DNA from: Torpedo marmorata
Lineage: Eukaryota
Length of the DNA stretch: 64,000 nt
Assembly: GCA_977017645.1 (NCBI GenBank)
Contig: OZ360233.1
Span: 21,390,001-21,454,000, forward strand
Reading direction: 5' to 3'
Positions 13,144 through 63,963 of this stretch are shown in pieces. The translations under genes were made by a program, and so were the position numbers. Position 1 is the stretch's first letter. Each line of letters opens with the position of its first letter. Under the pieces are notes generated by a model. That model was not told where the DNA came from, searched no databases, and saw only the letters and a list, made by a program, of their open reading frames with translations.

Positions 13144-14371
13144 ATTATTCCTCTGATACAAACCGAAGAAGGTAACTGTGTATTACATTCCCTAAAGGCT
13201 TTACAACTAATGAAATGCTTATTTCACATGAAGCCAGTAATGGAACACATGAACAGAATGCAGAAAATACTGAACGCACAAATAAAATGAGAAACATCAT
13301 CAATAATAACACAACTGCATGTCATTCCACAAGTGTTGTCTGACCTGCCAAATATTTTCAACACGTTGTTCTGTTTTTACTTAATATTTGCAGTATCTGC
13401 TACATTCTGCTTTTGTGCCAGCGTTTTCGCACACAAATTCACTCAAACGTTCCACGGCAGTTACATGGTGGATAGATGATAGGTGGGCCACCTACATGAA
13501 TCGCTGCACTTCTCCAAACACTACCTGGGGAGGTAAAACGAGCCTTCTGTTCACATCATCTAAGACAGCCATTCTCAATAATTTTATGGCAATGGAATTT
13601 ATGGCTCAAAGTTTATGGACGTCCTCCCTGTGAAGCTGCCAAGTTTCGGTTTCTTCCGTACTTCTCTGCTACTGTCCACATAAAAACATATAAAACATTT
13701 ATTCTACATGAGATGAAAAAGAAACAAGGTTTTTACTTAAACGTGCTGTGGCCCCCAGGGGAGGCGTCGGGGCCCCGATAAGAATGGCTGAAAAGAGACG
13801 ACGCATCCGGTGATCCGTTCTCAGGACCATAGAACCATAGAACATTGCAGCAGAGAAACAGGCCCTTCGGTCCATTCCAGTCTGTTCCGAACTCTTCATT
13901 CTCTGCTGCCCCCATGAGGCTTCGCAGCTCTTCTTCGCTACTGCACAAGAGAACCCACGTCGTCATTGGCATCTGGACTGGGAAAGGTTGGCCCCCAAAT
14001 TCCTGACTGATAAAGGAAACATATGGCCACTGTAGATCCGTAAACGTGTGACACGTAAAAAAATCCAAAGGAAAGGCCTTCACCAGTTTCTGCCCGTATC
14101 TAATAATCAGTTACCCATCAGGGCTGCACTCTCACGCTGGACTGAGACAACAGCAATGGCGCATTTTTGCATTGTCACTGGGATATTTTATTTCAGGATC
14201 GAGCACGTCGTGCAGATACGGGCGTAAAAGATTAGCCAACTATCAGCAAGAATCCATCCAAACCCCTCAACCTCTTGGAATTTTTTCAACGAAAATCATA
14301 CATAATGTTGGACATCACTGTGAATATTTGAAGCTGGGAGCGATGTTATTGTCAGGCGGCTCAACACGGTG

Positions 14372-14439
14372 TGAGTATAGGAACGGGTGGATGGAAGATA
14401 TATTTTGGCAGCGGATAAAATCCTGCAAGGTCCAGCCCA
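14372..14439 (+). pseudogene. TRAJ: TRAJ pseudogene (SIGTGGWKIYFGSG*)
   Basis: RSS TGTTATTGT-12-CACGGTG (14344-14371); stop and frameshift after FGSG; GTAAGT donor. Confidence 0.82.
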
Positions 14440-14959
14440 GTAAGTGGTTTTAATTGTGCACTCTGCGTCCATGCAAGTTGGAACACGCTCTTTGCTGAGG
14501 TAGTGGGTTCGGGATTGATTGTGGCATTCGATAGACAATTGAAGAAATGTATGCTGAGGATAAATATTTGCAGTCATACCGAATGGGTCAGGGTGTGGAA
14601 TTATAAATTTGCTCGCTGAGTGTCGGCAGAAGAGCGATGGGCCAAATAATCACCTCCTGTGGTGTATTTTTTCCATTATTTTCTCATGCAAAATAAACGG
14701 GGGAGGGGGGTTGCGTGCTATTTGAATACATGCCCAAACCGTCCAGTCACGGTTAAAATTAGAAACCAATAGATCTCACAGATGTGTTTTCTTTCGCAGT
14801 TTAATAAAGAGTCTGTGACCCGAACTCTAATTCCACTCCACAGATGCTGACTGACCTGCTGCGCATTTAGACCTTTTCTGCTTTTATTTCATATTTCTAG
14901 CATTGGTGGTTCTGTTCAATTTTTAACTTCCAGCCGATGGGGCTCATATATCCAAGATG

Positions 14960-16270
14960 CGCATCCTAATTCAATAAAATTCCAAAGCAAATTCTCCTAT
15001 TCTTAAACATTTGTTAGAAATATGGAATAAGACGGATAAGGAAATAGGAGGAAAAGGATTGATTTCTTCAAGGATGCCTTTATATCAAAATGGACTTATT
15101 CCATTTACTATTAACAATCAATTATTTAAAATTTGGTTTCAAAAAGGAATTAAGAAAATAAATGATTGTTTTGAAGCTGGTAAATTTATTACTTTTCAAA
15201 GAATGAAAGATAAATGTAATATATTAGATAATACACTTTTTGCTTATTATCAAATTAGAGCTTTTCTGATTGAGAAATTAGGTTATGCTTTGATTTTACC
15301 AAGACAGAATGAATTAGAATTATTAGTTACTAAAGGAGATGTAAATAAATTTATTTCTCAAATGTATATATTGTTTCAGAGGAAAATTCCTAAAGTAGGA
15401 ATTCATAAATCAAGATTAAAATGGGAATTAGATTTGAATGTAACAATAGATGAAAATCATTGGAAAGAATTATGTAAATTAAGTATGACGAAGATTATTA
15501 ATGTTAGATATAGATTAGTACAATATATTTTTTTTCATCAATTATATTTAACACCTAAAAAACTAAAGAAATTTAATCCGACATTATCAGGTTTATGTTT
15601 TAGATGTAATAAAGAGGTAGGTTCATTTGTACATTCTACATGGTTTTGTCCAAAAGTTTATGATTTTTGGTTGAAAGTTAAAAAAATTTAGATAAAATAT
15701 TTAAAATTACATTTCCAATGGAGCCTATGATATTTTTGTTTGGAGATATTAGAAAATTTAGTATTAAGATGAAATTAAATATGTATCAAATAGAATTTCT
15801 GCAAATTGCTTTAGCTGTTTCAAAGAAATGTATTGCTATTACTTGGAAATCTGATCTTGATTTAGGGTTAGAAGGATGGCATGCAGAACTTCGTTCATGT
15901 ATACCACTTGAAAAAATTACTTAGAACTTAAGGAATAAATATCATTTCTTTTTAAAAAATATGGAGCCCTTATATGAAAGCTGTTGGCTTAAGGATTTGA
16001 AGATCTCTGGAAATTGGATCTACTGGCTACTTAACCTCCATAATAGAATTAGTTTATAGATGTATTTATTAGATTGACATTCTCTTTACCTTATCCTTTT
16101 CTCTTCCTTCTCTTTCTTTTTATTATTTTATTAGATTAGTGGGGTTGGGAGGGTTGGGGAGGGGAGGGAGGGAGGGGGTGAAAATGTATCACAAATATTT
16201 GATAATTTTATATTTTATTTTATGTATTTTGTGATTTAAAATTTTTAAATAAAATAATAAATAAATAAAA
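14960..16270 (+). mobile_element. L1/Tx1-clade LINE 3' fragment
   Basis: ORF 15011-15691 with CFRC..HSTWFCP C-terminal zinc knuckle, G-rich 3' UTR, A-rich tail. Confidence 0.82.
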
Positions 16271-16429
16271 TTCCAAAGCAATGATAAAAGGGTATAAGCA
16301 GGATAAAAAGGATAAATGAATGAAAATGGTGAGGAAAATATAAAGTTAAGAGTATTCATTATTAAACTGCGTACATTCCAAGGGAAAGTCGAGATCTTCA
16401 AATTCTCAGTTCATTTTCATTATGTCTTC

Positions 16430-17868: not shown

Positions 17869-17946
17869 AACGTTTTATAATATTCGTTTCCAAGCATTGG
17901 TCGTTTTGCTGCTGCGTGTGTTTTCGTTGTGCTGTTTGTCGCTGTG

Positions 17947-18009
17947 TGGATAGGTGCACAGGTTATAACCTCATCTTTTCAAGCTGAATAAAGGTCTAAA
18001 TCTTGTTAA
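17947..18009 (+). pseudogene. TRAJ: TRAJ pseudogene (DRCTGYNLIFSS*IKV*)
   Basis: RSS TGTTTTCGT-12-CGCTGTG (17919-17946); two stops; FGxG decayed. Confidence 0.68.
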
Positions 18010-18559
18010 AGTGGACCTGAGGGTGCTTGAAAACAAACTGGAATACAGCTGCAAAAACAAATTTTAATCACTTTGTAAAGCATGAGAACTCCGTTATAGC
18101 AGGAAGCGCTGACACAAGCAGTTAGTCGCACCCCAAGAGAGTCATCATTGTGGCTCACATGTTGCATATTTATACAGATAAAGTTCCAGTTTTCCAGAAC
18201 ATTCGAACAGACTTTTCCATATAAGTACATGATTGTTAGAATTCTCTTGGGATTCGTTAATCAGGGTTGTTTCCCTAACCCAATGGTTAATAGTCTTTCA
18301 CGGTCTTTGCCAAATATGGAGTTGTTGTTCTTCTTCATAATCAGCTTTAACCTTTCTGAATTATCAAAACATGCCATGGAATGTTCTCTGCTATATTATT
18401 TTGGTTACCACTTTAAGATTTACATTCTCCATCCAACCCACTAAGTACATACTTGCCAAACGTTCCCGCTTGAATCACGGTTTCAATGCGGCTAATCTTC
18501 CTGGCCTCTCCATAGGGCGAATCGTGGACATCTAGTTATTTTGTTTAGTTGCAGAGCTA

Positions 18560-23998: not shown

Positions 23999-24859
23999 TC
24001 TTCACTTGTCAGGAAGGTGCAACAGCGACTGCTCTTCCTGAGAAGACTGAAGCGAACAAGGCTCTCGTCCACCATCATGTCAGCATTCTGCATGAGCTAC
24101 ATTCAGAACGACTTGGCCGGCGACATCACAGTGTGCTATGGTTGCTGTAGAAAATTGGATCGGAGGTCAATCCATAGGACCATAATAGAGGATTCGAAGA
24201 TCACTAGGGTCTCACTCACCCGACCCCCACTACCTGCCACCGCCCCCCCCCCACGCCCCAGCGCGTTGGCTCCAATGTTTTATGTTCCACTGTCACCACC
24301 GATGCTTAGTTTATAGGATTTGTATTTTCTTCCGGCGTGCTTCCCATGGGGTCTCCGGTTTCTACACAATTCCTAAGGACGTGGCACTATCGGTAAATTT
24401 GTCACCGAAACTTTCTGCGGGGGTACAGGTGAATTTGAGGACCTGTAGAGGTTTGATGGGAACGTGGAGAGAAAACAATGGGGTTGGTGTAACGTTGCTA
24501 TACACGGTTGCTTACTGCCAAACCATTGCTTTGTTCCAGGCTGCGGGAGGCTTGCTGGATGGCTGAGATACCAAACTAGTGATTTTATATGGAATAAATG
24601 AGGTATGGTGGACATATGCATGAGGGCAAATGGGAACGAGAAGCGCGGTAGTAACATCAGGATTTCATCCAGGGAACAGGAATGCACGTGATTGGCAGAA
24701 TTACCTCCTTCTGCTTAGTTACAAATTCCTCCGTTTATAACTCTATGTAGATGGAGGTGGTTGATGCTGTCAGTCTCGATTTGTGGACGCTCAATTTCGT
24801 TTAACGCGAATATCATCAACTATGTCTGGAGGGTTTTTGTCAAGCAGTTTACCAACGTG

Positions 24860-24922
24860 TGACTAGCGACAACGATAGGAAACTCACATTCGGCAGTGGG
24901 ACCAAACTGACGGTTCAGCCAA
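24860..24922 (+). CDS. TRAJ: TRAJ segment TSDNDRKLTFGSGTKLTVQP
   Basis: RSS GGTTTTTGT-12-CAACGTG (24832-24859); GTAAGT donor. Confidence 0.9.
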
Positions 24923-25810
24923 GTAAGTAAACGTTGTCAATGGTTGGATTTATCGTTCACTTCCCAAAGACCCATAGAGTCATGTCCCGGTAGAGAAAAG
25001 CAAAAGGTCCTTCGACCGACCACGTCCATGCTGGCCGAGGTACATATCTGAGCTATTCTCGGTTGCCTTATAATTTTTTTTTAAATGTAGACTTTCAGTA
25101 CGGTAACAGGCCCTCCGGCCCACGGGACCATGCCGCCCAATTACGCCCAATCCCGGAATGTATCCCTATAAACATTTCCTACCCATGTACCTGCCTCATT
25201 AGCTGTTGTAATTTTACTAGCTTCCACCATTTCGTCTGGCAGCTCTTTCTATATAACACCACATGGAAAAGGGTGCCCCCGCTGACTCTTTTAAACCTTT
25301 CTCCTCTCACCTTAAAACTATATCCTCTCGTTTTTAGACTCTTCTACTTTTGTACCAAGACTGTGACCATTTTCCGTCCTTATATTATATCCTACTTGCC
25401 CGCATTTTGACTGTGCCCCTCTCTTCCTTGACTGTATAAGTATTTGTCTACATGCATTTTAAGTGGAGTATTTGTATCTGATTCCACAACCTCCTCTGGC
25501 AACAAGTGACAGATAACAACACTCTGTGTGTAAAAATGTTTTAAATTAATTGTGAAGCAATAATGAGATAGCACTTGAATTGTCCATTACCTTAGTTGGG
25601 GAAATTGTGACACTGATAATCGTCAGTCACATTTCATATTCTACGAAAGAGCAATTACACTGTGGGGCCGTATGGGGTGCAAATCGGCAGAGCCTCTATC
25701 AAAATCAATTGCTCAGTCCAACCTTTTGGTGCAGCACAATGCCTTCTGTTAACGCTGTCATAACATCCAATGCACCAAATGGAGGTTTTGCCAGTTTTTT
25801 TCACACCGTC

Positions 25811-25876
25811 TGAATTACGGGGGAGCAGCGGATGCATTAACATTTCGAAAGGGGACGGGAATATCAGCGGAACCGG
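25811..25876 (+). pseudogene. TRAJ: TRAJ pseudogene NYGGAADALTFRKGTGISAEP
   Basis: AGGTTTTGC-12-CACCGTC (terminal GTG lost); FG->FR; donor TTAAGT. Confidence 0.78.
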
Positions 25877-27758
25877 TTAAGTAAAGACAAGGCATTTGAT
25901 TGCATTGATACAACGATCTAAAAATTACTCCTTCTTAGAGGAATGCAAGAAGGGCGCTGACGATCCCATGAAGATGTGAGCTAATATTTTCCCGTTGGTT
26001 TTAGATTCAATGGCAACATTGGGACTTTTAGTGTTAAATCGTACGTTACAACTATAATAACAGCAATACAGCAGTGGGGCTGTATTACGTCAGCAAGATC
26101 AGATCAACTTTTGAATGATAAAAAATGCTACAATGATCATGCGTTTATTGTCATATACACATGCACCTAAATTCTTACTTTCTGCCTCCGAACGGGTATT
26201 TATAAAAAGAAACATGATTGGTGTAACAACGAAAATTCGGGAGTCTAATAGCTGTTGGAAATAAACTGTTCTTGAAACTACAGGTTCTCGTTTTCAGTCC
26301 TGCACTTTCTGCCTTAAGGTAGAAGCGATACGGTTGTAAGGGTCTTTTGTGATGTTGGCTTCCTTCTTGAGGATGGGAGGTCGGGGTCAGATGGCTGTGT
26401 TTCTTGCCTTCTGCGTCCTCTGCGCTCCAGGGCACTTGATTTCCAAGCCAGGCTGTGATACTTTCCACAGTTCACCTGTAGAAGTTTGATTTATGTATAC
26501 GAGGGTAGAACCATCGAACCATAGAACATTTTGCTAGAAAAAAACAAGTTGCCAAACAAAATATGATTACCGTCATCTCATTAGGTGTTTAAGCTGGTGA
26601 GGGAAGCGGTGAAGATACTGTTGTTCTTAGGAGCGATTTGAATGAGGAGAGATACGAGTGTTTGAGGGGAGTTCCAGATTTCAGAGCATTTTGCGAGCCA
26701 GGCATAAGAGTTATTGGGTGCTGCATTATATTGACTGAACCAATAATCGTGCACTGAGAAGTGTGTTGTGACAATATCTCTTCCCCTCGATAATCACGCG
26801 AAATATATTATTTGATTACCACTGTACCGAAAGACGAGACTAAATTTGATCCTTGTGTATCAAGGCGATCGATCTGTGGCGCAATTTGTTCGAATGTTTT
26901 TTTTCATGAGACATTCGGAATTACATGTTACATTCTTACATTCGCCTCATGGATGTTATTGACTGGAGTGACTGAGAAAAGATGTTGAAATCGATTGATG
27001 TCATCCACGCTGTTGAATACAGGTCAAAACACATTAATTGAGTTAAAATGAACTAATGTCAAAGACATCAAGTGCCACCAATCGATGGAGATCAGAATGA
27101 TTGCCAATTTTCTATCATCCGTGCAATAACAAAATTTGAAAAGGAAGCAAGAACATAATTGAGTGACTCCCAACATATTTTAAATCATCCATACCTCGCT
27201 ATTTGCTAAATGTTCCACTACTTACACCTAGTATTAGAAATGATAGATCCCTTTGGATTATATAATAAAGTCTACCACCTCAGTTTTAATCTTATCTGTT
27301 TTATAACTGTTATTCGTATTTGATATGGGCGAACAAACGAAAGTCGTTCACCCTCGTNNNNNNNNNNNNNNNNNNNNNNNNNNNNNNNNNNNNNNNNNNN
27401 NNNNNNNNNNNNNNNNNNNNNNNNNNNNNNNNNNNNNNNNNNNNNNNNNNNNNNNNNNNNNNNNNNNNNNNNNNNNNNNNNNNNNNNNNNNNNNNNNNNN
27501 NNNNNNNNNNNNNNNNNNNNNNNNNNNNNNNNNNNNNNNNNNNNNNNNNNNNNNNNNNNNNNNNNNNNNNNNNNNNNNNNNNNNNNNNNCTAAATGAATT
27601 GTTGTGTGTGTGTTCGTTTGTGTTAGTTTATCTATCTGCATCTGTGTATCGATATGTTCGTGTGGGTGCTGGGTGGTGAGTGAGTGAGAGAGAGGGCGGT
27701 TGCCTGCGTGTCTATGAAAAATAGGCTCGTAGTTTTTGTTCGAGAGTCCCACGCTGTG

Positions 27759-27820
27759 GATCACTTCAGGAGTTACAAAGCTTATCTTTGGGAAAGGGAC
27801 CAAAATGACGGTGAAACCAA
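27759..27820 (+). CDS. TRAJ: TRAJ segment ITSGVTKLIFGKGTKMTVKP
   Basis: RSS AGTTTTTGT-12-CGCTGTG (27731-27758); GTGAGT donor. Confidence 0.92.
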
Positions 27821-28213: not shown

Positions 28214-29643
28214 GTAAGTCTACTCGCTCCGTCTGTTCTCAGCAGAAACAAAATCCAGACTTGGTTGGTTTGCATTGGATTCGAAAGGTTATCGAGTATC
28301 CCACCAACTGGTAGAGATGTTACCGCGCAGCTCCAGCGACCAGAATTCCACCCTAACTCCGGTGGTGTCCATTGAGTTTGCACGTTCCTCCTGTAACCAC
28401 GTGGGCTTCCTCCGGAAGCTCCAGTTGTTTCCTACATCTTGATTACATGCGAGTTCAGGAGGTCAGTTGGTCACTCTAAAGTGTCACCAGTGTGTTGGCG
28501 AATCTTGGAAGCTGAGGGGCAGTTGATGGTTCTGTGATTCTCATAGGTTACAGAGAAAATTAACGGAACTCGGTGGGCCGAAATTGCCTTTCTCTATGTC
28601 GAAATGGAAAACTAAATATGGCAAATTATCGCCAAGATGGTGTGGAATTTGCTTGCCCTTGACGCAAAGGACCAGATTTAAATTGACATGCCTTGTACAG
28701 TATATATCCCGGAAATATTCAATCACTTCAGTGGAAATGAAACAAGAAAATGATGGGGATATTCGAAAAGTCAAACTGCGTTCGTGTAGAGAAACTGAAT
28801 TAACGTATCTGGTCAGTGACTCGTCATTGGTGGGGGGGGGGGCGCCGGGATGCGTGATGAATGCCCAACAAGCATATATTGACAAGGTTTCCCAATAAGC
28901 CATGTCCTGAATTGAAAGTAGATTTATTCACAATAGCGAGCATTCTTGAGCGTTAATCATACGTATTTTCACAACATAAAATCAATCCCGCGGGGGATAA
29001 TTGTGTGAAGGTTGGCGGTGTGATCCTGCGAAGGTGTCGTAAAGCATTGAAATAAGACAATCTTCAGGTAGAATTAAGGTCATTAACAAGGAGTGTTAAA
29101 ACATATTGTCAGAAGTGTTTGCCCAGACATTGGTGGTCGTGGTGGGAAGTGCAATGTTGTACGGTCCCCTATCGGGAATAACAGAAGAGGTGAAGCAAAA
29201 AAATGTATTTCGAATGTAATTGAATGAGTAGTTCGCCTGCTACAATTTTGTGGTCCCAAATTTGGTTGGATTGGAATCACAGTAAACAACTGGGTTGACC
29301 TTTTTTACCTTGACTAAACGAAGCGCAGTTCTTGTGAGGCACAGTTTTCCATCATAACATGATCATTGTTGGTCAAACTTTCGACATTCTATTACGCTGC
29401 CGTTCCCTGCCTGTAGAATTAGCAGCTCGCCTTATGATAGATGTGCTCTTGGAGTCAGTTTTAATAAAATGGGCCGAACGGCCTCCTCCTGTACCATGAT
29501 ATGTATGTGTGGAATATATGTACTGTATTTCTGAACTATTTCGTCCTAACGTTGCCCTGGAAAAATTTCACTTTGTAGTTAAAGCCTCTTTCACCACAGC
29601 TAATAAGAACGAATGAGTTATTGTATGGGTGATGGCCACTGTG

Positions 29644-29709
29644 TGGGTAATACTGCAAGCAATGGAAAGCTGATATTCGGTCGAGGGACACAGTTGACCG
29701 TAACACCTG
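29644..29709 (+). CDS. TRAJ: TRAJ segment GNTASNGKLIFGRGTQLTVTP
   Basis: RSS AGTTATTGT-12-CACTGTG (29616-29643); GTAAGT. Confidence 0.92.
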
Positions 29710-31862: not shown

Positions 31863-31927
31863 TGAATACCGGTGGTAGTACCCTGAGGGTGATATTTGGA
31901 TCAGAGACTAAGTTATCGTGGCACCCA
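31863..31927 (+). pseudogene. TRAJ: TRAJ pseudogene NTGGSTLRVIFGSETKL (frameshift)
   Basis: TATTTTTGT-12-CACTCTG (31835-31862); 1-nt deletion; donor lost. Confidence 0.8.
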
Positions 31928-33230: not shown

Positions 33231-33290
33231 TGAATGTAGGAGCAACTGCACCTATATTTGGAACGGGGACCAGATTAAATATCGTTCCCA
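33231..33290 (+). CDS. TRAJ: TRAJ segment NVGATAPIFGTGTRLNIVP
   Basis: RSS GGTTTTTGT-12-CGATGTG (33203-33230); GTAAGT. Confidence 0.9.
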
Positions 33291-52805: not shown

Positions 52806-52850
52806 TCAAAATACCCTTGTAGTGTTTTTGTACCGGTGATTAGTACTGTG

Positions 52851-52910
52851 TGAATTATGATAACACAGGTCTGACATTCGGCCCAGGAACGAGGTTAACA
52901 GTGAAGCCCA
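52851..52910 (+). CDS. TRAJ: TRAJ segment NYDNTGLTFGPGTRLTVKP
   Basis: RSS TGTTTTTGT-12-TACTGTG (52823-52850); GTAAGT. Confidence 0.93.
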
Positions 52911-54077
52911 GTAAGTTTTTAAAATTCTAATTCATCAACGACCTTCTCTTTCTGCTTCATTTGTGTACCTGGTTATCAGATTTCCAGAGATGTGATATAA
53001 AATCGAGCAATTCGTATTATCCTGATGTATTTTTCAATATGCGGTTTTAATCTGGAATAATAACACGCTCTCATCTCTCTTTTCTCTACATCTTTCCCCT
53101 CTCTCCTCTATCTCCTCTCTCTCTTTCTCTCCCCCTCTATCTCCTTTCTCCCTCTTTCCCTTTCTATCTCCTCTCTCTTACTCTCCACTCTCTTTCTTTC
53201 CTCCCGCCTGCGTTCCTCTCATGCTCACCTCTCTCATTCCTCCTCGCTCTCTCTCTCCCCATCGCTTCTCTCTCCCCTCTCTCTCTCACTCTCTTTCCTC
53301 TCAGCCCCTCTTTTTCTATTTCCCTCTCTCCCTCTTTGTATCCTCTCTTACACTCTACAGTACGCATTTTCGTTCCTCCCCTACANNNNNNNNNNNNNNN
53401 NNNNNNNNNNNNNNNNNNNNNNNNNNNNNNNNNNNNNNNNNNNNNNNNNNNNNNNNNNNNNNNNNNNNNNNNNNNNNNNNNNNNNNNNNNNNNNNNNNNN
53501 NNNNNNNNNNNNNNNACTTTATCTTTAAACAGAAACAAGAATCATTCTCATCTGGATTAATGTCCGGCCATTTGATAATAGGTTCGTCTATGCATTTCAA
53601 CCAAGAGTCTCTCACAGTAATTTAGTCGCGTTCAAATGATACTAAGATAGTTGCAAAAAGAATAAAAAACTCTGCCGAACACGGAGACCATTCTTGTAAA
53701 AGTTTCAACTTGTATTAGATCTGATTATTTAAATGCAGTCCGGTCAGCATACCCGCGGATTTAAGGGCTAACGCATCAGATATTGGAACAATTCACCAAA
53801 ACCACAGCTTGCTTTTGAAAGTGATTGGGTCCTCTGCATTGTTTAAAGAACTCCAATTATTTTTACGTGCGTTCTGTGCAGTAAGATTTCACGAAATGTT
53901 TACAGTCCATTTGACTTATTGGTTTCGAGTGAGTACTTATTATTTTGGAGGGAATTCTATTAAAGGCATATTGATCATGTGAAAATGAGGTAGGAATGAG
54001 AACAATGTCGGTCTAAGATGTCATTTTCCAGATCAAAATAAGCCGGAGGTGTTTTTGTATCGGTGATTCGCATTGTG

Positions 54078-54134
54078 TGAATTATGGTAATGAGATAACA
54101 TTTGGCCCAGGGACGAGGTTAACAGTGACGCCCA
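54078..54134 (+). CDS. TRAJ: TRAJ segment NYGNEITFGPGTRLTVTP
   Basis: RSS TGTTTTTGT-12-CATTGTG (54050-54077); GTAAGT. Confidence 0.93.
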
Positions 54135-54511
54135 GTAAGTATTTCAAGCATACGTTCACCTTCCTTGTTATCTGTCTGTTAAATTGATGGATTCTGTTTC
54201 CCGACTCCAGAACTGTGGTCTAACACTGAGGAAATCGTATGATACAGAAATATAGTAATGGGTTTAACTAAGTGCAAAGGGTCGTTGGAAAATGTTTTAT
54301 TTTGCTAATAGGACAGGGTTGAATCTTTTCTGAGGAATGGAGAGGGGTGTCCGAGTAAGAAAGGAAACGTTCCAAGATGATTCAGTGTCGGGATAAGAGG
54401 GGATTGAAACTCCAGTCAAATGTTATGACTTGCTCTGACTTCCTCGGGGCTGCTGAGGATACGGGCCAACTGAGTAACCGGAAAAGTTTTGTGACAGGGT
54501 TCAACGTTCTG

Positions 54512-54563
54512 TAAATGGCTTGGGATCAGCTCCTCTCATATTCGGAGGTCACCTTCGAACCCA
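54512..54563 (+). pseudogene. TRAJ: TRAJ pseudogene NGLGSAPLIFGG (internal deletion, frameshift)
   Basis: AAGTTTTGT-12-CGTTCTG (54484-54511); GTAAGT. Confidence 0.8.
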
Positions 54564-55335
54564 GTAAGTTGGACAATACCTTTTTATGTTGCTCAACAAC
54601 CAGTTGCACGTCCGTACATTTAGTGTGTGTAGCTTATTGACACATGGTCAGAGGTTACATGTAGTCAGCCATCATATCATTTTCAAAGAAAGTGTGGGCG
54701 TGTAATCAATTATATGTTACTCAGCCACGGCCTTTTTCTGTCCAACTAAACGGCGAATATTCATCACAAATTGTATTCTATTTGTAACTGTGGGAACTGC
54801 CTATTACATTTTTGTAATAATGTCGCAGCTTAATGGAAAAAAAGATATGTTGTTCCAAATCTGGAATAAATACAAGCAGTTACATGGTGGATCCCCCTGA
54901 AATGTTAAAATCCGACAGAACATGTGATGAATCACGTCCAAAGAGAATTAGGTCACAAATACGCGTTTGAGGTTAATCCACCAATACTTGAACATTTACA
55001 ATGCGTCTATCAACTGATCTCTGAAATCGTGTCAGAACTAAATTATACTCCGTGGAAAGGATGTACTTCCTGAAGCTGTTTCATGGCCATTTTTTTAGGA
55101 ATAAATCTTGTTAGACAGTTTATCGTTCTTAAGAAATAAATGTCAGGTCTTCAGTTGTGAGTTCGGCAGAGTGAGTTCAGGAAGTAAATAACCTGACAAA
55201 TAAGCCTAATCTTCAATACTGTGATCGAGGTGGCTATGTTTCTATTGGAAAAAGTGAAAAAAGACATTGTATCGATGACGAGAGGATGGAAAGGTTGGGT
55301 TTAGAAGAAGGAGAGTGGGTTTATTCAAACAGAAG

Positions 55336-55562
55336 GGTGGCACGGTTGGTGTAGCGGGTAGCGCAACGCTGTTACAGCGTCAGCGACCAGGACCGGAACG
55401 GGGTTCGAATCCCGCGCTGTCTGAAAGGAGTTAGTATATTCTCCTCGTGTCTGCGTGGGTTTTCCCCGGGGCACCGGTTTCCTCCCACCGTTCAAAAATC
55501 GTACAGGAGGTGCAGGTTAATGGGGGTAAATTGGGCGGCACGGACTCATGGGTCTAAATTAT
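55336..55562 (+). mobile_element. V-SINE (HE1-like)
   Basis: A/B boxes and V-domain; near-identical to 19609-19848. Confidence 0.88.
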
Positions 55563-56175
55563 AACAAAAAAGATCCTAAAGGACACGCTGAGAGGCGGCG
55601 ATGCTTGAATATAGAGCAAACGCAATATGGCGGAGGTTCTCAGCGGGCCGAGCAACGAGATTTGGAAAAAAGGAATGGGCGACGTCTTGAACGTTTGCAA
55701 TCCGAAACGTCGACCATTCTTTTCTCTTGATCTAGTGAGTTCCTCAGGCAGATTCTTTTTGCTTAAGACCTTAATCGGCCTTGGCAGGGTTGATGTTGAG
55801 GTATTCAAGGTTCAAGATTCCTTTCATTGCCACGAAATAATACCTTAAAGTGTAATAGTGAGAAGAATGTCGAGTAAGGGGAGATAGTTACAAAATAACG
55901 GGCTGGTGACAGATGTGTTAAAGATCAATGAATTTAAAGGCATTGGCGAACTGGGGAGAGAAAGGGAGTTAAGGCCTGGAGCGATCTGCCTTGGTCATGT
56001 TGAATGGTAAAGCAGGATTGAGCGGTCTGGTGGTGTAGACCTATTCGTACTTGCTCTTCTGCTCTTGCATGCTTCAAACCTAACGGGAAGCAATCTGATT
56101 GGGAGTCGAGAAAACAAGGTCAACCTGGTATTGAATATAGTCCCGGGTGTTTTTGTACTGGTCGTTGATACTGTG

Positions 56176-56241
56176 TGAGTTCTGGTGGGGGCGATAGGAA
56201 GATAACGTTCGGACCAGGAACAAGGCTAACCGTGGCTCCCA
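56176..56241 (+). CDS. TRAJ: TRAJ segment SSGGGDRKITFGPGTRLTVAP
   Basis: RSS TGTTTTTGT-12-TACTGTG (56148-56175); GTAAGT. Confidence 0.93.
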
Positions 56242-56663
56242 GTAAGTTATCCCTACCTAATCTCTCAGTAAGCTAAGCCAGAATTGTTCATCTGGGTTCC
56301 AGATTTTCAAAAGAACCTCGAAAATTAGAAAATGCATCACCATTAAAAAAATACTACATGCTGCTGATTAGAAATAAAAACGAAAACGCAGGAAAATTCC
56401 AGCAGGATAGTCAGAGTCGGGGAGAGAGGCGTGGAGTCAACGTTTCATATCAATGACCTGTCTCCCTTTCTCTCCATACATGCCTGTTTGATTGCTATAA
56501 ATGCATTCAAAACTGCAAACTAAGATAATACATGCTCAGACTGAAGCATAAGATGCATATATTTCATCAGAAAGATGGGAGTGCCAGAAGGATATAGAGT
56601 TGAGTCGCTATTCTCCGGACAAAACAGCCTCGGGGTGTTTTTGTACCCGTGAATAGTACTGTG

Positions 56664-56723
56664 TGAATTCTGCTGCTAACGTTCTGATATTTGGACCAGG
56701 ATCTAAATTGACTGTCATACCCA
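56664..56723 (+). CDS. TRAJ: TRAJ segment NSAANVLIFGPGSKLTVIP
   Basis: RSS TGTTTTTGT-12-TACTGTG (56636-56663); GTAAGT. Confidence 0.92.
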
Positions 56724-57235
56724 GTAAGTGTTTCAAACAAAATTTGATCCACGTTCATCTCTTTGCGTTGGTCATTTGTAGAAATGTGAAATAAACAGGG
56801 TCGATTCGCAGTGTCCAGAAATATGTTCAAAGATTTACTTTAATTCGGGTGTACAGGGCATTGGGAATAACTGTGCTATTAAAATATAGGTGAAGCCCTC
56901 CCCATGATTAGAGATAGATATGGCGAATAATTGAAAGGAATATCCCAAGATGGACTGGGCAGGAGGATTACTTGCTATCACTTTGACGGTATCCAGAAGT
57001 GGTGGTGGAGGCTGCTTCAACAGGAATATTCAAAATACACAGAGATTTAAGAAAAATGGGTTATGGGTGTGAAGTAGGAAGGATTAGATTTTTGCGCAGT
57101 AGGTTTACATAGGTCGGAAAAATATCGTGGGCTGAGTGACCTGTAACTATGCTGCAATGTTCTATGTTCTACGGTAACAAGATAACTGATTAACTGTTGA
57201 AGAGAAATGGTTTTGCGGCAGGTTTGAACATTGTG

Positions 57236-57293
57236 TGTGTGGAGACATCCCCCCTCACGTGTGGACGTGAGACCAGCCTCACCGTAGAACCCA
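57236..57293 (+). pseudogene. TRAJ: TRAJ pseudogene CVETSPLTCGRETSLTVEP
   Basis: TGGTTTTGC-12-CATTGTG (57208-57235); FGxG->CGRE; donor GTGGGT. Confidence 0.78.
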
Positions 57294-57984
57294 GTGGGTG
57301 GAAGAAAATGTCGTTGGATTCAGCACCACCAACCACCAGTTGCTCATGTCCAGCTTAGTGCGAGCGATCTGATAAAATATTTTAACATGTGTATTTTCTG
57401 TCGGAGCATCCTCTGGATATGTGGGTGTTGCATATTACTCTGTTTGGCCTTTTGCTCCACACCTTCAAAACATAAAATGAAATAAATAATTGGAGACAAC
57501 ACTCAGCAGGTCGCGCAGCAGCTGGGGAGAGAGGAAGAAAGACATAGGGTCAACGTTTCCGATGAATAACACGTTCGGAACTGGCTAAATAGCATCAGAG
57601 TAATCGGAGATACAGCATAGAAACGCTATGCTTAGGTCTGCCGTTCTAGCGTCGACTGTCAACTATCCATTTCTGTTATCCCTACATTAATCCCATATTT
57701 TATCATATGTTCTATTCCACCCAGCCCGGGATCTCCCACAATGGTCGCTATTTCCAGTGGCTAATTAAACTTTGGATGTGGGTGGGAGGGACGGGAAGAA
57801 TCCAGCGGGAAACCAACGTCGTCGCAGAGATATCGTGCGAGCTCCACACAGACAGCACCCGAGGTCAAGATTGAATCCGGGTCTCTGGCGCTGTGAGGCA
57901 GCGACTCCACCAGCTACGACTCACTACGGTCCTAAAGTTCCAATGAAAGTTTATTGTTCCGGGATGTTAACTCTTGTTTCTTAC

Positions 57985-58435
57985 AACATTACAGCAGAGT
58001 TCAGGCCCTTCGGCCCACTATTATGTGCCGACTTATATAAGCCTACTCAGCAATCTAACCTTCCCTTCCTCCCACCAGTAACCCTCTATATTTCTTGCGT
58101 CCTCGTGCCTGTCTAAGAGTTTATTAATGTCCCTATTGTACCAGCCTCCACTACCATCCTGGCAATGCATTCCAGGCACCCACTCCTCTCTGTGTAAAAG
58201 TAATTGTCCCTGATTTCTCCCATAAACGTTTCTCCCCTCACCCTATGCAGATGTCCTCTAGTATTTGCTACTGTCGCCGCGGGAAAAAAGGATGCTGGCT
58301 GTCCACTCTATCTATGCCTCTCATAATCTTTTCGACCTCTATTAAGTCGCCTCTCATCCGTCTTCGCTCCAAGGAGAAATCCGTACATCTAATAACTTTG
58401 CCTTATAAGACACGTTCTCCAATCCAGGAATCATC
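57985..58435 (-). mobile_element. CR1 3' fragment
   Basis: - strand TTGGAGCGAAGACGGATGAGAGGCGACTTAATAGAGG (LERRRMRGDLIE). Confidence 0.8.
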
Positions 58436-58793
58436 CCGTTTCACCGAAGGCAGAGATTTGCTTTCCCTGAAATAATTTAAGAATTGCAAATGTGGGTTTT
58501 ATTGAAAGGCAACAGATGGGCAAAGATAAACGGTGAATATTGGCAAACCGCCTGGTTGTAGAAAACAATATAGAGGATAACCGAGTGAGTGTTAACTGCA
58601 AACGTTCTGTGACTGGAATAAAACTGTTCAGAAGGATCCGTGAGGGATATGGAAGTTATACAAATGAATTAAGGGATCATGAAACTTTCTGAATCAAATG
58701 CATGGACATTTTACCCCTTAACTCGCAGAGTAAAAGGTCATAACTGCATAGGTTTTGACTGAGTGGGTTTTTGTGGTGGCGAAAGACAATGTG

Positions 58794-58856
58794 TGAACTT
58801 AGGGGGTGCAGGGAAACTGATATTTGGAGATGGAACACGATTAACCATAGAACCCA
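58794..58856 (+). CDS. TRAJ: TRAJ segment NLGGAGKLIFGDGTRLTIEP
   Basis: RSS GGTTTTTGT-12-CAATGTG (58766-58793); GTAAGT. Confidence 0.93.
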
Positions 58857-59109
58857 GTAAGTAGTGCAGCAGGTTGGTGAATATTCAGCAGTACCCATGA
58901 ATGAACATAAATTATGCAATGCTGCAAGACTGAAATTTATTTTTTAAAATGATACCGTCTCTAGGAATTTCAAGCAGCATCTGTGGAAAAGGAAACGGAG
59001 ACAACGTAGATGTTTGGTTTTCCGTTTCTCTTTCCATAACTCAACTTTCCAAATGAATGTTACAGGGAGAGGTAATTAGATGTCCGGTGGCATTCTGCCA
59101 TGTTGGTTT

Positions 59110-59645
59110 AATTAAATATTATTGCGTTCGGTTCTGGTCGCCTCATTATAGGAAGGATACTGATGCTTTGGAGAGGGTGCAGATGAGATTTACCAGGCTG
59201 TTGCCTGGATTGGAGAGCGTGTATTATGAAGCAAGGTTGATAGAACTATGGCTTTTCTCATTCGATCGACGAAGGATGAGAGGTAACTAGAGGTATTTCA
59301 GATCATATGGGGCTTTTTTAGGGTGGAAAGCCAGCGCCTTTTTTCCTGGGCGACAATAGCAAATTCCAAATACCATCTGTTCAGATTGCATGGAGGAGAA
59401 AGCTTAGGGAAGAGGCCAGAGATATGTATTTTTACTCGGAGTGTGGTGGGTGTCTGGAATGCATTTCTGGGATGGTGGTGGACAATAGGGGCATTCAAAA
59501 GATTCTAAAATGGGCATATTGATGCAAGACAAATAGGGGGTTATGGGTGTGACGTAGGCAAAATTAGATTGTTGGGGATAAGGTATACATAGGAGGTCTG
59601 AATGGCCTGTACTGTACTTTGCTATAGTGTTCTATGTTCTATATT
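59110..59645 (+). mobile_element. CR1 3' fragment
   Basis: YCVRFWSPHYRKD..LERVQMRFTRLLPGL. Confidence 0.85.
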
Positions 59646-60169
59646 CCCCCCGAAGGTTGTACGGAGGTTGAGGCAACAACCATGCAGCATTTGGACTAGA
59701 ATCTGGCGGTCTAAAGGGACGTTTAGTCTCTATAAATCCCTCTCTGCGAATTCCTTAAGTTTGAATTGGGACATTTTCTCATCTTGTATCTTCGGGGCAC
59801 TGAGACACCGAGTTTAGTCACAAGGAGCATTAAATAACGTCTCACCTATCATCACATCACAGAGAAAATATGCTCACAATTACTAAAGTATTCATGCATA
59901 AAACGACAACCAGAACAAACGTTGCACCTCATTGTTTCACTGCACTTTCTAATAATACAGCTTAAGCTCTGCATCATTATTTAATATATCATACCGAACG
60001 CTCTTCCAATAATAGGCTTAAACAATATATCATTCAGTGATATATAACAAACGACATTATTCCATCGATAGATATAGATAGAATATCCTATTAATACATC
60101 ATAAATGACATAGGCCTCACAATGTAACTTATATAATATCTCTCATGAAATACAAAACATGTTATTCTT

Positions 60170-61100
60170 AATCTTTATTTTTAAATATTTTTATTTGTTT
60201 CATCAAGTAAATGTTACATAGGTACGTAATAATAAAATAAAGTATTAACAAATTACATATAATAATAAAAATGGTGGTAAGACCTACGTTACATTGAAAA
60301 TAGTTTTTTTTTAAAAACCTGAAAAAAAGCACTATACTAATTATCAATCCCCTCCCTTCAGAGGCTGCTGGCTAAACATAAACAGTCCACTACCTAATAA
60401 TAAAAAAGAAGGTAATCAATGGGTTCAAAAACCAACAATTAATTAATCTTACAAATTTTGAAAATAATTAAGAAAAGAACCCCATAAGGAAACAAAGTTA
60501 CGATTCATTTCAGTAGTGGAACATCTAATTCTTTCCAAAGTCAAACATGCCATCATATCAGACAACCATTGAGTTTGAGTGGGAGGGACAGCATCTTTCC
60601 ATCTCGTTAATATGGCCCTTCTAGCAATAAGGGAAGCAAGAACAAATACATGGGATTGTGACGCAGTCAATATTAGACCCATTGGCCCACTTATTCCAAA
60701 GAAAGCAAGAAAAGGATTTGGAGTCAAATTAATGTTAATAACTAAAGACAAGGTACGGAATACACCTTCCCAAAAATTAGAAAGAGAAGGACATAACCAG
60801 AACATATGATACAATGTACCTTCTTCAGTTATACATTGATCACATTTAGAATAAAAATCAGAATAGAATTTAGCCAATTGGTCTTTGGAATAGTGAACCC
60901 AGTGTACTACTTTAAATTGTAATAATGAATGACTGACACAAAGAGAGGATGAGTGCACTCGCTTCAAAATAGAGTCCCATGCAGTTTCAGAAATTAATTG
61001 TTGAAAATCTTGTTCCCATAGTTTTTTGATTCTGTCCAGGGAACTATCCCTCGAACTTAAAAGTAAATCATAAAGGACTGATAACATCCGTTTATGATCA
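60170..61100 (-). mobile_element. L1/Tx1-clade LINE 3' fragment
   Basis: ORF 60449-61087 with QFKVVH..CDQC..HMFWLCP zinc knuckle; A-rich tail. Confidence 0.85.
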
Positions 61101-61446
61101 GGTTTGAAACTATAATGTTATTCTTAATCAAGTGCAGACACTCTGTCTCCTAAAATAGCCCTAGGAAGTGAATCTCGTTCAGAGTTATTCGCTCTTACTG
61201 AATTACACCAAATCCTCATCTGTCAAATTGAGTTGGGCAGAATGTGCCAAAACTATAACCTGGCAGTGAGATCGGTTCAATTAATAACGCAATTAATGCA
61301 ATCCAGCGCCGTGAATGCAGTCAGCATTCTTTTAAAAAGATGCCAATTAATTTAGCAACACCCTGAATGTGATATTGACAGCGGTTCGGCCTAAAAGCCG
61401 CTCAGTTGCAAAAGACGGGGTTTTTGTTCATTGCATTTTCACTGTG

Positions 61447-61510
61447 GGATATGATGGATCAGATTATCGGCTAATATTCGGAGATGGGGCCAAGCTCACT
61501 GTAATTCCAA
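61447..61510 (+). CDS. TRAJ: TRAJ segment GYDGSDYRLIFGDGAKLTVIP
   Basis: Perfect consensus RSS GGTTTTTGT-12-CACTGTG (61419-61446); GTGAGT. Confidence 0.94.
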
Positions 61511-61527
61511 GTGAGTATGGATCGGTA

Positions 61528-61660
61528 AAAAACAGAAATTCTGGAGAAACTCAGCAGGTCAAACAGTGCATTTTATGTAGCAAAGGTTGAAATACATAAC
61601 CGACGTTTCGGGCTTGAGCCCTTCATCAAAGTATGAGAACATGCGGGCAGGTGTCCGACA
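61528..61660 (-). mobile_element. Penelope-like terminal (pLTR) fragment
   Basis: Close match to 9745-9865. Confidence 0.8.
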
Positions 61661-62518
61661 GTTCGTGTATAAATTAAGTTTAGGCTGGATTAAAATTTTA
61701 AAATGCATCTGTGAATGCTAAGAAACTTCGTCAGAGGCGACTAATAACTGCTGGCATTGGCAAAAGAGCCCATGGAGATTTTCACGCGTTATTGTAACCA
61801 AGCTAATACCGCACGTTGTTTAAATTGGTTGTTTTCTCTGGAACGTCGGAGAATAAGGGGGAAACCTCAGAGAAGTGTATTACATTATGAGAGGCAAAGA
61901 TAGGGTGGATGGTAAGAATCTTTTCCAATGGTTAAAAGTCACATACTTGAGGACATGCAATTAAAATGAAGCGGGGAAGGTAAAGGAGAAGTGCAGGGCT
62001 GTTGTATTTTTATACAGTAAGTGTAACGGTGCCTGGAACGGGATGCCAGGGAAGCAGGTACGATGGGAGAGTTTAACAGGCTTCTGAAGTGACACACGAA
62101 AGTGTACGTGCAGACGTTTAGTTTACTTTGGACATCACGTTTGGAGTAGACATCGTGGGCCGAATGGCTTGTTCCTTTGCTCTACTGCTCCATATTGTAT
62201 GTTCTCATTAAAAACTAGACAATAGCCCACGCTATAATATTCAAAAGCAGTATCCTGAACACAGGGAGTTCGCAAGTCTCTCCCTAATTCAACGTCAGCA
62301 AACTGACTCCAGTCTGAATTGTGCAAGGATATGTTAAGATAGAAAAGGTTACGTTTACGGGCTAGGGCCGTGTCGTTCTTGTAATATGCGGAATTAGTTC
62401 AAATTTAATTGGAAAATATGTCATTAAAATGGCCCCACGGGTCTTTGGTGGAATGGGCAACGAACGTGTTTCTCAGACTGCATCTCCCGGGGTTTCTGGT
62501 ATGGCATGTGCCACCGTG

Positions 62519-62581
62519 TGAGGTATAGCAGTGGCACCAGACTGATGTTTGGAAAGGGGACGAAACTCCTCGTGGAATCAA
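62519..62581 (+). CDS. TRAJ: TRAJ segment RYSSGTRLMFGKGTKLLVES
   Basis: RSS GGTTTCTGG-12-CACCGTG (62491-62518); GTAAGT. Confidence 0.9.
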
Positions 62582-63234
62582 GTAAGTGTGACAAATAAGT
62601 CATTGGGTTACGCACAAAATGGTCACGGCTCAATATGACACAATTCCATCCGTCGAGTCTAGCTCTTTACAGGCTCTTCGGATCACTTATCCATATCGAC
62701 CAAGTTCTCTCCTGGAACTGGTCCCTTTTGTCTGCGTGTGTCCTATATCCCTCTGCATGTTTATTATCCGTCAATCCAATCGTTTTATAAACTTTATAAT
62801 TGTACCCGCATCTCTCACCTCCTCTGGCATTTCGTTCTGTACAGAAACCAACCTCTGCGCAAGAAGAACATTTCCCGGTGCTGTTCCCTGGTGTACATTT
62901 TAGGTGGAACTAGACATAGCAATCTCAATTTCTCTGAGATTTCCGCCTCTCACCGTAACCTCTTATCTGACTATTTACCTGATTCATGCCCCCATGATTT
63001 TATAACCTGTAGAAAGTCAACCCTCAACCTTCTCTGCTCCATGGAGTAAGGTTTCTGATTTTACAACCTCTCATCATAACTTAAGCTGTTCGTTCCCAGT
63101 AATAATCTCATGAATATTTTCTGCATCCTTTCTAACATAATGACATATTTAGTTTCCGATTCAATTTGTGGACCTTTCCTTATCTCTGTGTTGTACACAA
63201 AGGGGAGGGAAATTGGAAGCATATTTACACTGTA

Positions 63235-63290
63235 GTGTGGCAGATACAAGTTGGTATTTGGATAACGGACGAAGCTGCCTGTGATTCCGA
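63235..63290 (+). pseudogene. TRAJ: TRAJ pseudogene CGRYKLVFG*RTKLPVIP
   Basis: Heptamer CACTGTA, no nonamer, in-frame TAA, GTGAGT. Confidence 0.8.
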
Positions 63291-63901
63291 GTGAGTGGGG
63301 AATAGTTCGTATTGGACTTGTTTCATGCTGGAGATATACATATATTGCAAATTTCATCAGAGTTTGAAAATGCAAATTTAGGACGTTATGTAATGTATAG
63401 GTAAATATCATTGAAGTATTGTTAATATAATTGAAAATGTATTGAACCTGCAAAAGATTCCACTCGAAAACAAATATCATCGAAGCCAATACCATCAACG
63501 TTGAAGCATATTGCTTTCGACCATGGTGGAGTAAAAATAAACATAGAGAGGATAAGAAATAGATGCAAGAGTAGACCATTCAGCTTCTCGAGCTTGTTCC
63601 TCAATTGAACTAGACGATTGCTGATACTTCAGCTCAAAACCATTTCCTCTGCTCTCCCCGTATTCCTTCAATGTACAGATATTCATCGATCTCCATTGTG
63701 GGTGAAAGTAGCTCTCCGCTGTACATAGCTACAAATAGCCATCACCCTGAGTGAAGTTATTTCTCCTCAATTCACTTCTAAATGGCCGAGAGCTCATTCA
63801 GAAAATATCCACCCCTTTATTTTAAGGGTCACCAGCCGCCTACTTTGTAGTTTGGTCCCTACTCATTGGCAAGAGTTTTTGTACGTCTATCACACACTGT
63901 G

Positions 63902-63963
63902 GCCGAATGCTGGGGGATACGATCTCATATTTGGATCGGGTACGAAACTTACAGTTCAACCAA
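63902..63963 (+). CDS. TRAJ: TRAJ segment PNAGGYDLIFGSGTKLTVQP
   Basis: RSS AGTTTTTGT-12-CACTGTG (63874-63901); GTAGGT. Confidence 0.92.

What the first reader, a model, noticed from the sequence alone, without database searches (positions are those of the whole stretch)
14344..63963. Hidden array of about 37 RSS-flanked J segments: a TCR-alpha J cluster, probably from a cartilaginous fish
Seen: repeated nonamer-12-heptamer, FGxG mini-exon and phase-1 donor, all on the + strand, mostly too short for the ORF track. Known: this is the RAG1/2 substrate architecture of TRAJ. Inference: elasmobranch host, and possibly unannotated in this assembly. Some peptides recall human TRAJ (AGGSYGKLIF vs TRAJ52 AGGTSYGKLTF; NARLTF vs TRAJ31 NARLMF). 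The system is known, but the segment-level repertoire may be new.
Basis: partly seen in the sequence, partly recalled or inferred. Interest (0 to 1): 0.8.

Follow-up and report, generated by a model that had tools for sequence, protein, structure and literature searches.

The report
Ray T-cell receptor alpha J array
This window holds the first 36 of about 95 tiny 'joining' gene pieces that lie between the T-cell receptor delta and alpha constant genes of a cartilaginous fish (likely an electric ray); it is the standard vertebrate antigen-receptor layout, with one block copied three times whose copies differ mostly in the part predicted to touch antigen.

Summary
Confirmed and ordinary in kind. 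The window holds 36 J-like units (12-spacer RSS, FGxG, donor 34 nt after the Phe codon), all on +; 21 of the 32 best-scoring are intact. A fixed rule finds 22 on +, 0 on −, and 0–1 in 100 shuffles. The array runs on to about window position 128,180 (58 more J; ~114 kb in all). Upstream lie three D segments with 12/23 RSS, seven J-delta-like units, a single-copy C-delta and a ~3-Mb array of V genes with 23-RSS. Downstream lies a single-copy C-alpha, 65% identical to a Narcine bancroftii TCR-alpha model; NCBI models of Narcine join near-identical J peptides to that C. This is the canonical trdc–(traj)n–trac locus, with the 'TG' V/J microhomology reported for sharks. Published J-alpha counts cover five sharks (63–156); both batoids in that table are NA. 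Extra: a 14.4-kb J block is triplicated (~97% identical). In its intact Js the CDR3 part has 16 replacement and 1 silent change, against 2 and 4 in FR4, which suggests diversifying selection (post hoc, small numbers). Splicing and rearrangement were not shown in this species.

The parts
14344..14439 (+). pseudo J-alpha: good 12-RSS, starts TG, stop after FGSG, 36 nt to the donor (frameshift)
17919..18010 (+). 12-RSS with decayed J remnant, no tetrad or donor (doubtful; end approximate)
24832..24922 (+). intact J-alpha (RSS + J) TSDNDRKLTFGSGTKLTVQP
25783..25876 (+). pseudo J (FRKG, no GT, weak RSS)
27731..27820 (+). intact J-alpha ITSGVTKLIFGKGTKMTVKP; 14 residues match the J of Narcine model P0034
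28133..28213 (+). pseudo J (FDGG, decayed RSS)
29616..29709 (+). intact J-alpha GNTASNGKLIFGRGTQLTVTP; 14 residues match the J of Narcine model P0033
30765..30858 (+). pseudo J (stop, no donor)
31835..31927 (+). pseudo J (FGSE, no donor; end approximate)
33203..33290 (+). intact J-alpha NVGATAPIFGTGTRLNIVP
33965..34052 (+). weak pseudo J (FGRE, weak RSS)
34598..34688 (+). intact J-alpha NTGGSTPLTFGSGIRLKIEP
35308..35401 (+). intact J-alpha NAGTSLNKLAFGSGTRLTVIS
35844..35938 (+). pseudo J (in-frame stop)
36539..36628 (+). intact J-alpha NYGNTNKLIFGSGTLLIVEP
38302..38392 (+). intact J-alpha SGGSATALIFGGGTKLTVES
39925..40015 (+). pseudo J (donor lost)
40693..40780 (+). intact J-alpha NTGNARLTFGPGTKLIVIP
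41687..41777 (+). pseudo J (FARR, donor lost)
42351..42438 (+). open J with altered heptamer end (likely non-recombining)
42742..42829 (+). intact J-alpha DVGYEKLTFGSGTKLTVNP
43287..43374 (+). open J with decayed RSS
45260..45347 (+). intact J-alpha GSGYNEIIFGSGTKLTVTP
46267..46360 (+). intact J-alpha DAGGSYGKLIFGPGSKLTVTP
48998..49074 (+). short open J with decayed heptamer
51314..51407 (+). intact J-alpha YGSGSGGKLTFGSGTRVIVTP
52823..52910 (+). intact J-alpha NYDNTGLTFGPGTRLTVKP (paralogues beyond the window at 65835, 80269)
53516..64000 (+). copy 1 of a triplicated J block, period ~14.4 kb (runs past the window end to ~65229; further copies at ~67926–79646 and ~82296–93984; 96.6–97.1% identical)
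54050..54134 (+). intact J-alpha NYGNEITFGPGTRLTVTP; 17 of 18 residues match the J of Narcine model P0041
56148..56241 (+). intact J-alpha SSGGGDRKITFGPGTRLTVAP
56636..56723 (+). intact J-alpha NSAANVLIFGPGSKLTVIP
57208..57293 (+). pseudo J (CGRE) in all three copies
58766..58856 (+). intact J-alpha NLGGAGKLIFGDGTRLTIEP
61419..61510 (+). intact J-alpha GYDGSDYRLIFGDGAKLTVIP
62491..62581 (+). intact J-alpha RYSSGTRLMFGKGTKLLVES
63208..63290 (+). pseudo J (stop, decayed RSS)
63874..63963 (+). intact J-alpha PNAGGYDLIFGSGTKLTVQP. Parts outside the window (contig = window + 21,390,000): 58 more J-alpha at C45:21,454,189–21,518,180; C-alpha exons 21,526,438–734, 21,528,495–542, 21,529,742–~849; C-delta exons 21,350,308–622, ~21,351,228–284, 21,352,924–~21,353,033; seven J-delta-like units 21,316,670–21,334,558; D segments at 21,276,776, 21,314,493, 21,316,389; V array 18.1–21.09 Mb
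   Evidence: outside parts:

Best explanation
The window is the 5' part of the J-alpha array of a single T-cell receptor alpha/delta locus, laid out V(n)–D3–J-delta–C-delta–J-alpha(~95)–C-alpha, in a cartilaginous fish that is likely an electric ray or close batoid. In developing T cells RAG1/2 would pair the 23-RSS of an upstream V with the 12-RSS of one J, delete everything between (including D, J-delta and C-delta), and join V to J; the shared 'TG' at V positions 8–9 and J positions 1–2 would bias many joints to be in frame. The phase-1 donor after each J would then be spliced to the C-alpha exon, skipping the unused downstream Js. The long array would allow repeated V-J replacement. The array has grown by segmental duplication; the latest 14.4-kb block exists in three copies whose intact Js likely diverged under selection in the CDR3-coding part. 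Shown: segments, signals, order, copy number, substitution pattern. Inferred: recombination, splicing, editing, selection, host.
For: J units and controls. Downstream C: 65% over 98 aa to a Narcine bancroftii 'T cell receptor alpha chain' model, E 9.8e-34; only 22–29% to delta-type C domains; single copy; three exons with AG/GT ends. Upstream C: Pfam C1-set above cut-off; 40–44% to proteins named TCR delta constant in Hypanus and Leucoraja and to a V-D-J-C chain of the Leucoraja cluster; carries CLxxxFxP, the trdc signature of PMC10322711; single copy. Three 12/23 D segments before J-delta and none between the two C genes. V genes on + at C45 18.1–21.09 Mb; 18 of 20 sampled have a 23-RSS, one a 22 spacer, one is decayed. 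TG microhomology: 20 of 20 sampled V genes (a 21st motif hit was spurious), 47 of 58 intact J-alpha, 0 of 2 intact J-delta; 50 of 58 J-alpha have the RSS in the conserved frame. 9 of 14 Narcine TRAC models begin with a J peptide; the best match is 17 of 18 residues to window J 54078–54134. Size fits sharks: 63–156 J in 59–138 kb (PMC10322711 Suppl. Table 4). Triplicate: CDR3 16 replacement/1 silent vs FR4 2/4, Fisher p=0.008; 13 of 17 changes at codon position 2, p=0.0003; 0 changes in 72 CDR3 positions of three pseudo-J triplets.
Against: No transcript or rearranged read from this species was seen. The C-alpha has CLATHYF, not the published CLxTD(x)F signature (the Narcine model has CLATEYF). 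DAD1, the mammalian neighbour (recalled), is on another contig, C30. C-delta is as close to sharks (39–46%) as to batoids (40–44%), so the batoid call rests on C-alpha and J matches to one species, from a word-limited search that returned no other C-alpha. Several names among the C-delta hits read 'TCR alpha chain-like' or 'Ig heavy chain-like', so automatic names are unreliable. The selection test is post hoc on 17 changes; per-site CDR3 divergence (15 of 197) is not significantly above background (507 of 10,753; p=0.06).
Confidence: 0.96

Rival explanations
1. The array is the J cluster of another antigen-receptor locus (TCR gamma, beta, delta or Ig light chain).
For: 12-RSS/FGxG Js are shared across loci; one window J hits alpha, beta and delta chains about equally in PDB. 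Automatic names of related C domains are mixed.
Against: The Js lie 3' of C-delta, so they cannot splice to it; the only C exon found downstream matches TCR-alpha; no D lies between the two C genes; IgH loci of cartilaginous fish have one J per cluster (PMC6795676, passages).
Confidence: 0.02
2. The locus is real but the triplicated block is an assembly artefact (haplotypes stitched in tandem), so the J count is inflated by about 20–25 and the CDR3 differences are allelic.
For: Tandem near-identical blocks are a known assembly hazard (general knowledge); no reads were available to test it.
Against: Three copies, each pair ~3% apart with indels; C-alpha and C-delta are single copy; copy boundaries differ.
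Confidence: 0.07
3. The CDR3-biased differences among the three copies come from gene conversion with older J paralogues or local mutation hot spots, not from selection.
For: Small counts; several changes are swaps among GGT/GCT/GTT/GAT codons common in other Js; overall CDR3 divergence is only 1.6 times background.
Against: Changes are single bases at codon position 2 (13 of 17) with flanking silent sites unchanged; 2 of the 9 three-allele columns in 11,645 fall in 186 CDR3 positions; pseudo-J CDR3 parts show none.
Confidence: 0.35

Closest known systems
TRAJ arrays of sharks (Chiloscyllium punctatum 84 J/111 kb, Scyliorhinus canicula 66, Ginglymostoma cirratum 63, Stegostoma 73, Hemiscyllium 156; Giorgetti et al. 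2023, PMC10322711 Suppl. Table 4)
   Same: trdc–(traj)n–trac order, 34 nt from FGxG to the donor, RSS in a fixed frame, V T8G9/J T1G2 microhomology, ~100-kb span.
   Different: Likely batoid host (both batoids in that table are NA); 50 J by my 34-nt reading of their pattern, 90 by my profile; 86% in the conserved frame against 92–97%; trac signature has H in place of D; recent block triplication.
Elasmobranch antigen-receptor complex (Flajnik et al. 2025, PMC12227049)
   Same: TCR alpha/delta translocon linked to IgH: C1-set and VH-type exons lie at C45 22.5–29.5 Mb, and two Ig-like V remnants lie near the D region.
   Different: That work mapped C and V gene models (section 6 read); I saw no J-level catalogue there. 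PSMB5, UrIg2 and NAR-TCR were not tested here.
Narcine bancroftii TCR-alpha gene models (XP_069796925–40)
   Same: C-alpha 65% identical; several J peptides recognisably orthologous and joined to C in the models.
   Different: A different species; models are automatic and list about nine Js, not the germline array.
Mammalian TRA/TRD locus
   Same: Nested delta locus, single C-delta and C-alpha, long 12-RSS J array.
   Different: No inverted V was found between C-delta and the first J-alpha (its presence in mammals is recalled); DAD1 is on another contig; TG microhomology is kept here and degraded in mammals (PMC10322711).

Membership tests
TRAJ cluster of TRA/TRD | Order 5'-trdc-(traj)n-trac-3' on one strand | tested here: met
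   C-delta at −39.7 kb, J from 14.3 to 128.2 kb, C-alpha at 136.4 kb, all +
TRAJ cluster of TRA/TRD | 12-spacer RSS before each J; 23-spacer RSS after V | tested here: met
   27 vs 0–4 for other spacers and strands; 18 of 20 sampled V with 23, one with 22, one decayed
TRAJ cluster of TRA/TRD | FGxG with GT donor 34 nt from the Phe codon | tested here: met
   21 of 32 in the window and 37 of 58 downstream fully intact
TRAJ cluster of TRA/TRD | Downstream constant gene is TRAC | tested here: met
   65% to a Narcine TCR-alpha model; 22–29% to delta C domains
TRAJ cluster of TRA/TRD | trac peptide signature CLxTD + F/xF (PMC10322711) | tested here: inconclusive
   CLATHYF here and CLATEYF in Narcine: the D is replaced, the rest kept
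TRAJ cluster of TRA/TRD | Upstream constant gene is TRDC (CLxxxFxP; preceded by 12/23 D and J-delta) | tested here: met
   CLLSEFYP; 41–44% to named Hypanus and Leucoraja TRDC; three D segments
TRAJ cluster of TRA/TRD | No D segments serving the J array | tested here: met
   no paired 12/23 element between the two C genes at the scan threshold
Fish-type (primordial) TRA | V T8G9 / J T1G2 microhomology and fixed RSS frame | tested here: met
   20 of 20 V; 47 of 58 J start with TG; 50 of 58 in frame
TRAJ cluster of TRA/TRD | Rearranged V-J transcripts spliced to C-alpha | tested here: inconclusive
   no RNA holder listed; indirect only: Narcine models join orthologous Js to C-alpha
Ig light chain or IgH minicluster | One J per V-(D)-J-C cluster | tested here: not met
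   about 90 J and no V or C within 114 kb
NAR-TCR cassette (for the inverted V-V-D-J unit upstream) | NAR-like V-D-J followed by a leaderless supporting V-delta | tested here: inconclusive
   order on − is V, Ig-like V, D, decayed J; no homologue found, atlas gives only generic TCR V

The most novel reading that the evidence does not exclude
A first segment-level germline map of a batoid TCR alpha/delta locus, catching J-alpha repertoire growth in the act: a 14.4-kb block triplicated recently, and selection rewrote the CDR3-coding codons of the functional copies while sparing FR4 and the pseudogenes. In a lineage where microhomology makes CDR3-alpha largely germline-encoded, J duplicates would be direct targets of diversifying selection.
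Probability: 0.5. Interest if true: 0.5.

Novelty: new member of a known kind. Interest (0 to 1): 0.3.

Why it matters
The system is textbook, so the finding is not surprising. Its value is as a resource: germline V, D, J and C for a likely ray fill the batoid gap in the one cross-vertebrate J-alpha table I could read, and a germline reference is what the nurse-shark study of TCR-alpha hypermutation lacked (PMC5931798, passages). The triplicated block gives a small natural experiment on how germline CDR3-alpha diversity arises, parallel to the selection signals reported on human TRAJ37 (PMC13396459, passages).

Tried and rejected
Expression: no RNA holder listed. The one run (X1, contigs, RNA only guessed) gave a 182-nt piece inside the C-alpha exon with 7 differences and pieces 3' of the transmembrane exon, and no joints; no conclusion drawn. 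The published J pattern as printed spans 33 nt and gave 0 hits in the window and 2 in 664 kb; read with one more T to span the stated 34 nt it gave 18 in the window, 50 between the C genes and 0 on −. Word-based homologue searches for C-delta and for the inverted V found nothing; PDB searches with both C domains returned only generic Ig C1 hits. A loose regex scan for Ig domains was mostly noise and its output was cut. A V between C-delta and J-alpha was sought by tblastn and by an HMM built from TCR, IgH and IgL V genes of this genome: none; a very divergent V could be missed. DAD1 synteny: not met. Earlier findings of the scan: none. Deiss 2019, Ott 2021 and Criscitiello 2010 are not held, so the comparison with the nurse-shark delta locus was not made from the papers. 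Five literature searches listed no batoid J-alpha catalogue; subscription journals and IMGT were not searched. Considered and rejected: chance motifs, TCR gamma/beta/IgL, and polyploid or haplotig duplication of the whole locus (both C genes are single copy).
Full report
OBSERVATION. The window is G000:C45:21,390,001–21,454,000 of a 6.22-Gb assembly; positions outside 1–64,000 below are window coordinates extended along the contig. A plain count of nonamer–spacer–heptamer matches gave 27 with a 12-nt spacer on + and 0–4 for every other spacer and strand. Because the profile is trained on the data, I also used a fixed rule: 22 hits on +, 0 on −, and 0 in 99 of 100 shuffles, 1 in one. Of the 32 units above the joint threshold, 21 are intact and 11 have a stop, lost donor, variant tetrad or weak RSS. 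The unit at 14344 is frameshifted, and 17919 has no recognisable J. The first 14 kb hold retroelement fragments and no J. Seven N stretches (1,711 nt) are unreadable.

SURROUNDINGS. I read 400 kb upstream and 200 kb downstream. Downstream, 58 more J units (37 intact) run to 128,180, so the array spans ~114 kb with 90 scored units plus about six weaker remnants. At 136,438–136,734 lies an Ig exon, followed by a 48-nt hinge exon (138,495–138,542) and a transmembrane exon (from 139,742), each with AG/GT ends. It is 65% identical over 98 aa to a Narcine bancroftii TCR-alpha model (the only hit among 45 candidates), 22–29% to delta-type C domains, and single copy. Upstream, at −39,692 to −36,967, lie a C1-set exon with the motif CLLSEFYP, a candidate hinge exon and a transmembrane exon. 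The nine relatives I compared are 39–46% identical and include proteins named TCR delta constant in Hypanus sabinus and Leucoraja erinacea; other hits carry misleading automatic names. It is single copy. Before it are seven J-like units (2 intact; −73,330 to −55,442) and three D segments of 13, 13 and 11 nt flanked by 12- and 23-RSS (−113,224, −75,507, −73,611). V-set matches lie on + at C45 18.1–21.09 Mb (only the best 150 of 2,044 candidates genome-wide were scored); of 20 sampled, 18 have a 23-RSS, one a 22 spacer and one is decayed. C1-set and VH-type exons follow at 22.5–29.5 Mb, matching the IgH–TCR alpha/delta linkage of PMC12227049 (section 6 read). DAD1 is on contig C30.

TEST AGAINST PUBLISHED CRITERIA. 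PMC10322711 (passages, sections 6, 7 and 19, and Suppl. Table 4 rows) defines J-alpha arrays by the order trdc–(traj)n–trac, the C signatures, 34 nt from FGxG to the donor, and, in fish, a V T8G9/J T1G2 microhomology with a fixed RSS frame. Order, trdc signature and 34-nt rule are met. The trac signature is met except for D to H (E in Narcine). All 20 sampled V genes have TG at 8–9; 47 of 58 intact J-alpha begin with TG and 50 of 58 have lengths that are multiples of three; neither intact J-delta begins with TG. Their table lists ten cartilaginous fishes: five sharks with 63–156 J in 59–138 kb, one with 0, four NA including both batoids. My 34-nt reading of their pattern gives 50 here.

INDIRECT EVIDENCE FOR SPLICING AND HOST. 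Nine of the 14 Narcine TRAC models start with a J peptide. P0041 matches window J 54078–54134 at 17 of 18 residues; P0033 and P0034 match 29644–29709 and 27759–27820 at 14 positions each. These are automatic models, and I did not see their RNA support. They point to an electric ray or close batoid, a different species from Narcine bancroftii (about 0.8, inference). C-delta does not separate rays from sharks. Direct RNA evidence is lacking.

TRIPLICATED BLOCK. Self-comparison shows a period of ~14.4 kb with three copies (about 53.5–65.2, 67.9–79.6 and 82.3–94.0 kb), pairwise 96.6–97.1% identical. In the seven intact J triplets the part before FGxG has 17 changes, 16 of them replacements and 13 at codon position 2 (p=0.0003 against one third); FR4 has 2 replacements and 4 silent changes (Fisher p=0.008); three pseudo-J triplets have none in 72 positions. 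With three further groups, one of them with a weak RSS and two with only two copies, the figures are 20:2 against 3:5. Against: per-site divergence of the CDR3 part is 15 of 197 against 507 of 10,753 in the background (p=0.06), the test is post hoc, and conversion is not excluded.

MECHANISM. From established V(D)J biology: RAG1/2 joins a 23-RSS V to a 12-RSS J by deletion, removing the delta segments; microhomology biases the joint; the J donor splices to C-alpha; long arrays allow successive rearrangement (PMC5931798, passages). The anatomy is shown; the activity is inferred.

VERDICT. What is new, within the five searches of the held library, is a likely batoid segment catalogue and a recent block triplication with CDR3-biased replacement. 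Three key nurse-shark papers could not be read, and only 13 of the 19 supplementary files of PMC10322711 were reached (one of them unreadable), so a prior description may exist. Other papers used: PMC13433984, PMC13396459 and PMC6795676, passages only. Interest 0.3.

Noticed in passing
G000:C45:21,164,060–21,168,631 (L078), − strand: Inverted cassette: an open V with extra cysteines and a 23-RSS, an Ig-heavy-like V with a weak RSS, a D with 12/23 RSS and a decayed J. It could be a relic NAR-TCR-like or Ig-like unit; no homologue found.
   Followed up: partly
G000:C45:21,044,808–21,045,130 (L066): An open V whose RSS spacer is about 11–12 nt instead of 23 (a deletion relative to its paralogues), so it could not join a 12-RSS D or J normally.
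   Followed up: no
L026:425–736 (window −149,575): Ig-heavy-like V remnant on + upstream of the first D segment; a further decayed V lies near −186,740.
   Followed up: partly
window −113,224 vs −75,507: The first D lies 38 kb from the other two and shares its 23-nt spacer exactly with the second, which suggests a duplication.
   Followed up: no
window −36,967 to 14,344: About 51 kb between C-delta and the first J-alpha, repeat-rich, with no V found on either strand.
   Followed up: partly
window 6862–8679 (−), 10204–11984 (−), 14978–15691 (+): Retroelement fragments judged by eye: Ty3/Gypsy-like RT/integrase, Penelope-like RT and a LINE C-terminal piece; not scanned against a family library.
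   Followed up: no
L081 (C45:24,612,800), L088 (C22:21,804,700), L084 (C79), L087 (C78), L090 (C11): Ig V exons that run straight into D or J sequence without an RSS: germline-joined Ig genes, a known feature of cartilaginous fish.
   Followed up: no
window 108,000–124,400 (L005–L006): Older J duplications (65–80% identical repeats) in the 3' part of the array.
   Followed up: no
L010 (window 157,000–163,300): A long tandem minisatellite about 18 kb downstream of C-alpha gives repetitive open frames of up to 1,388 codons.
   Followed up: no
contigs C54 (25–29 Mb) and C104 (2.80–2.88 Mb): Other V-set arrays that may be the TCR beta and gamma loci; not examined.
   Followed up: no
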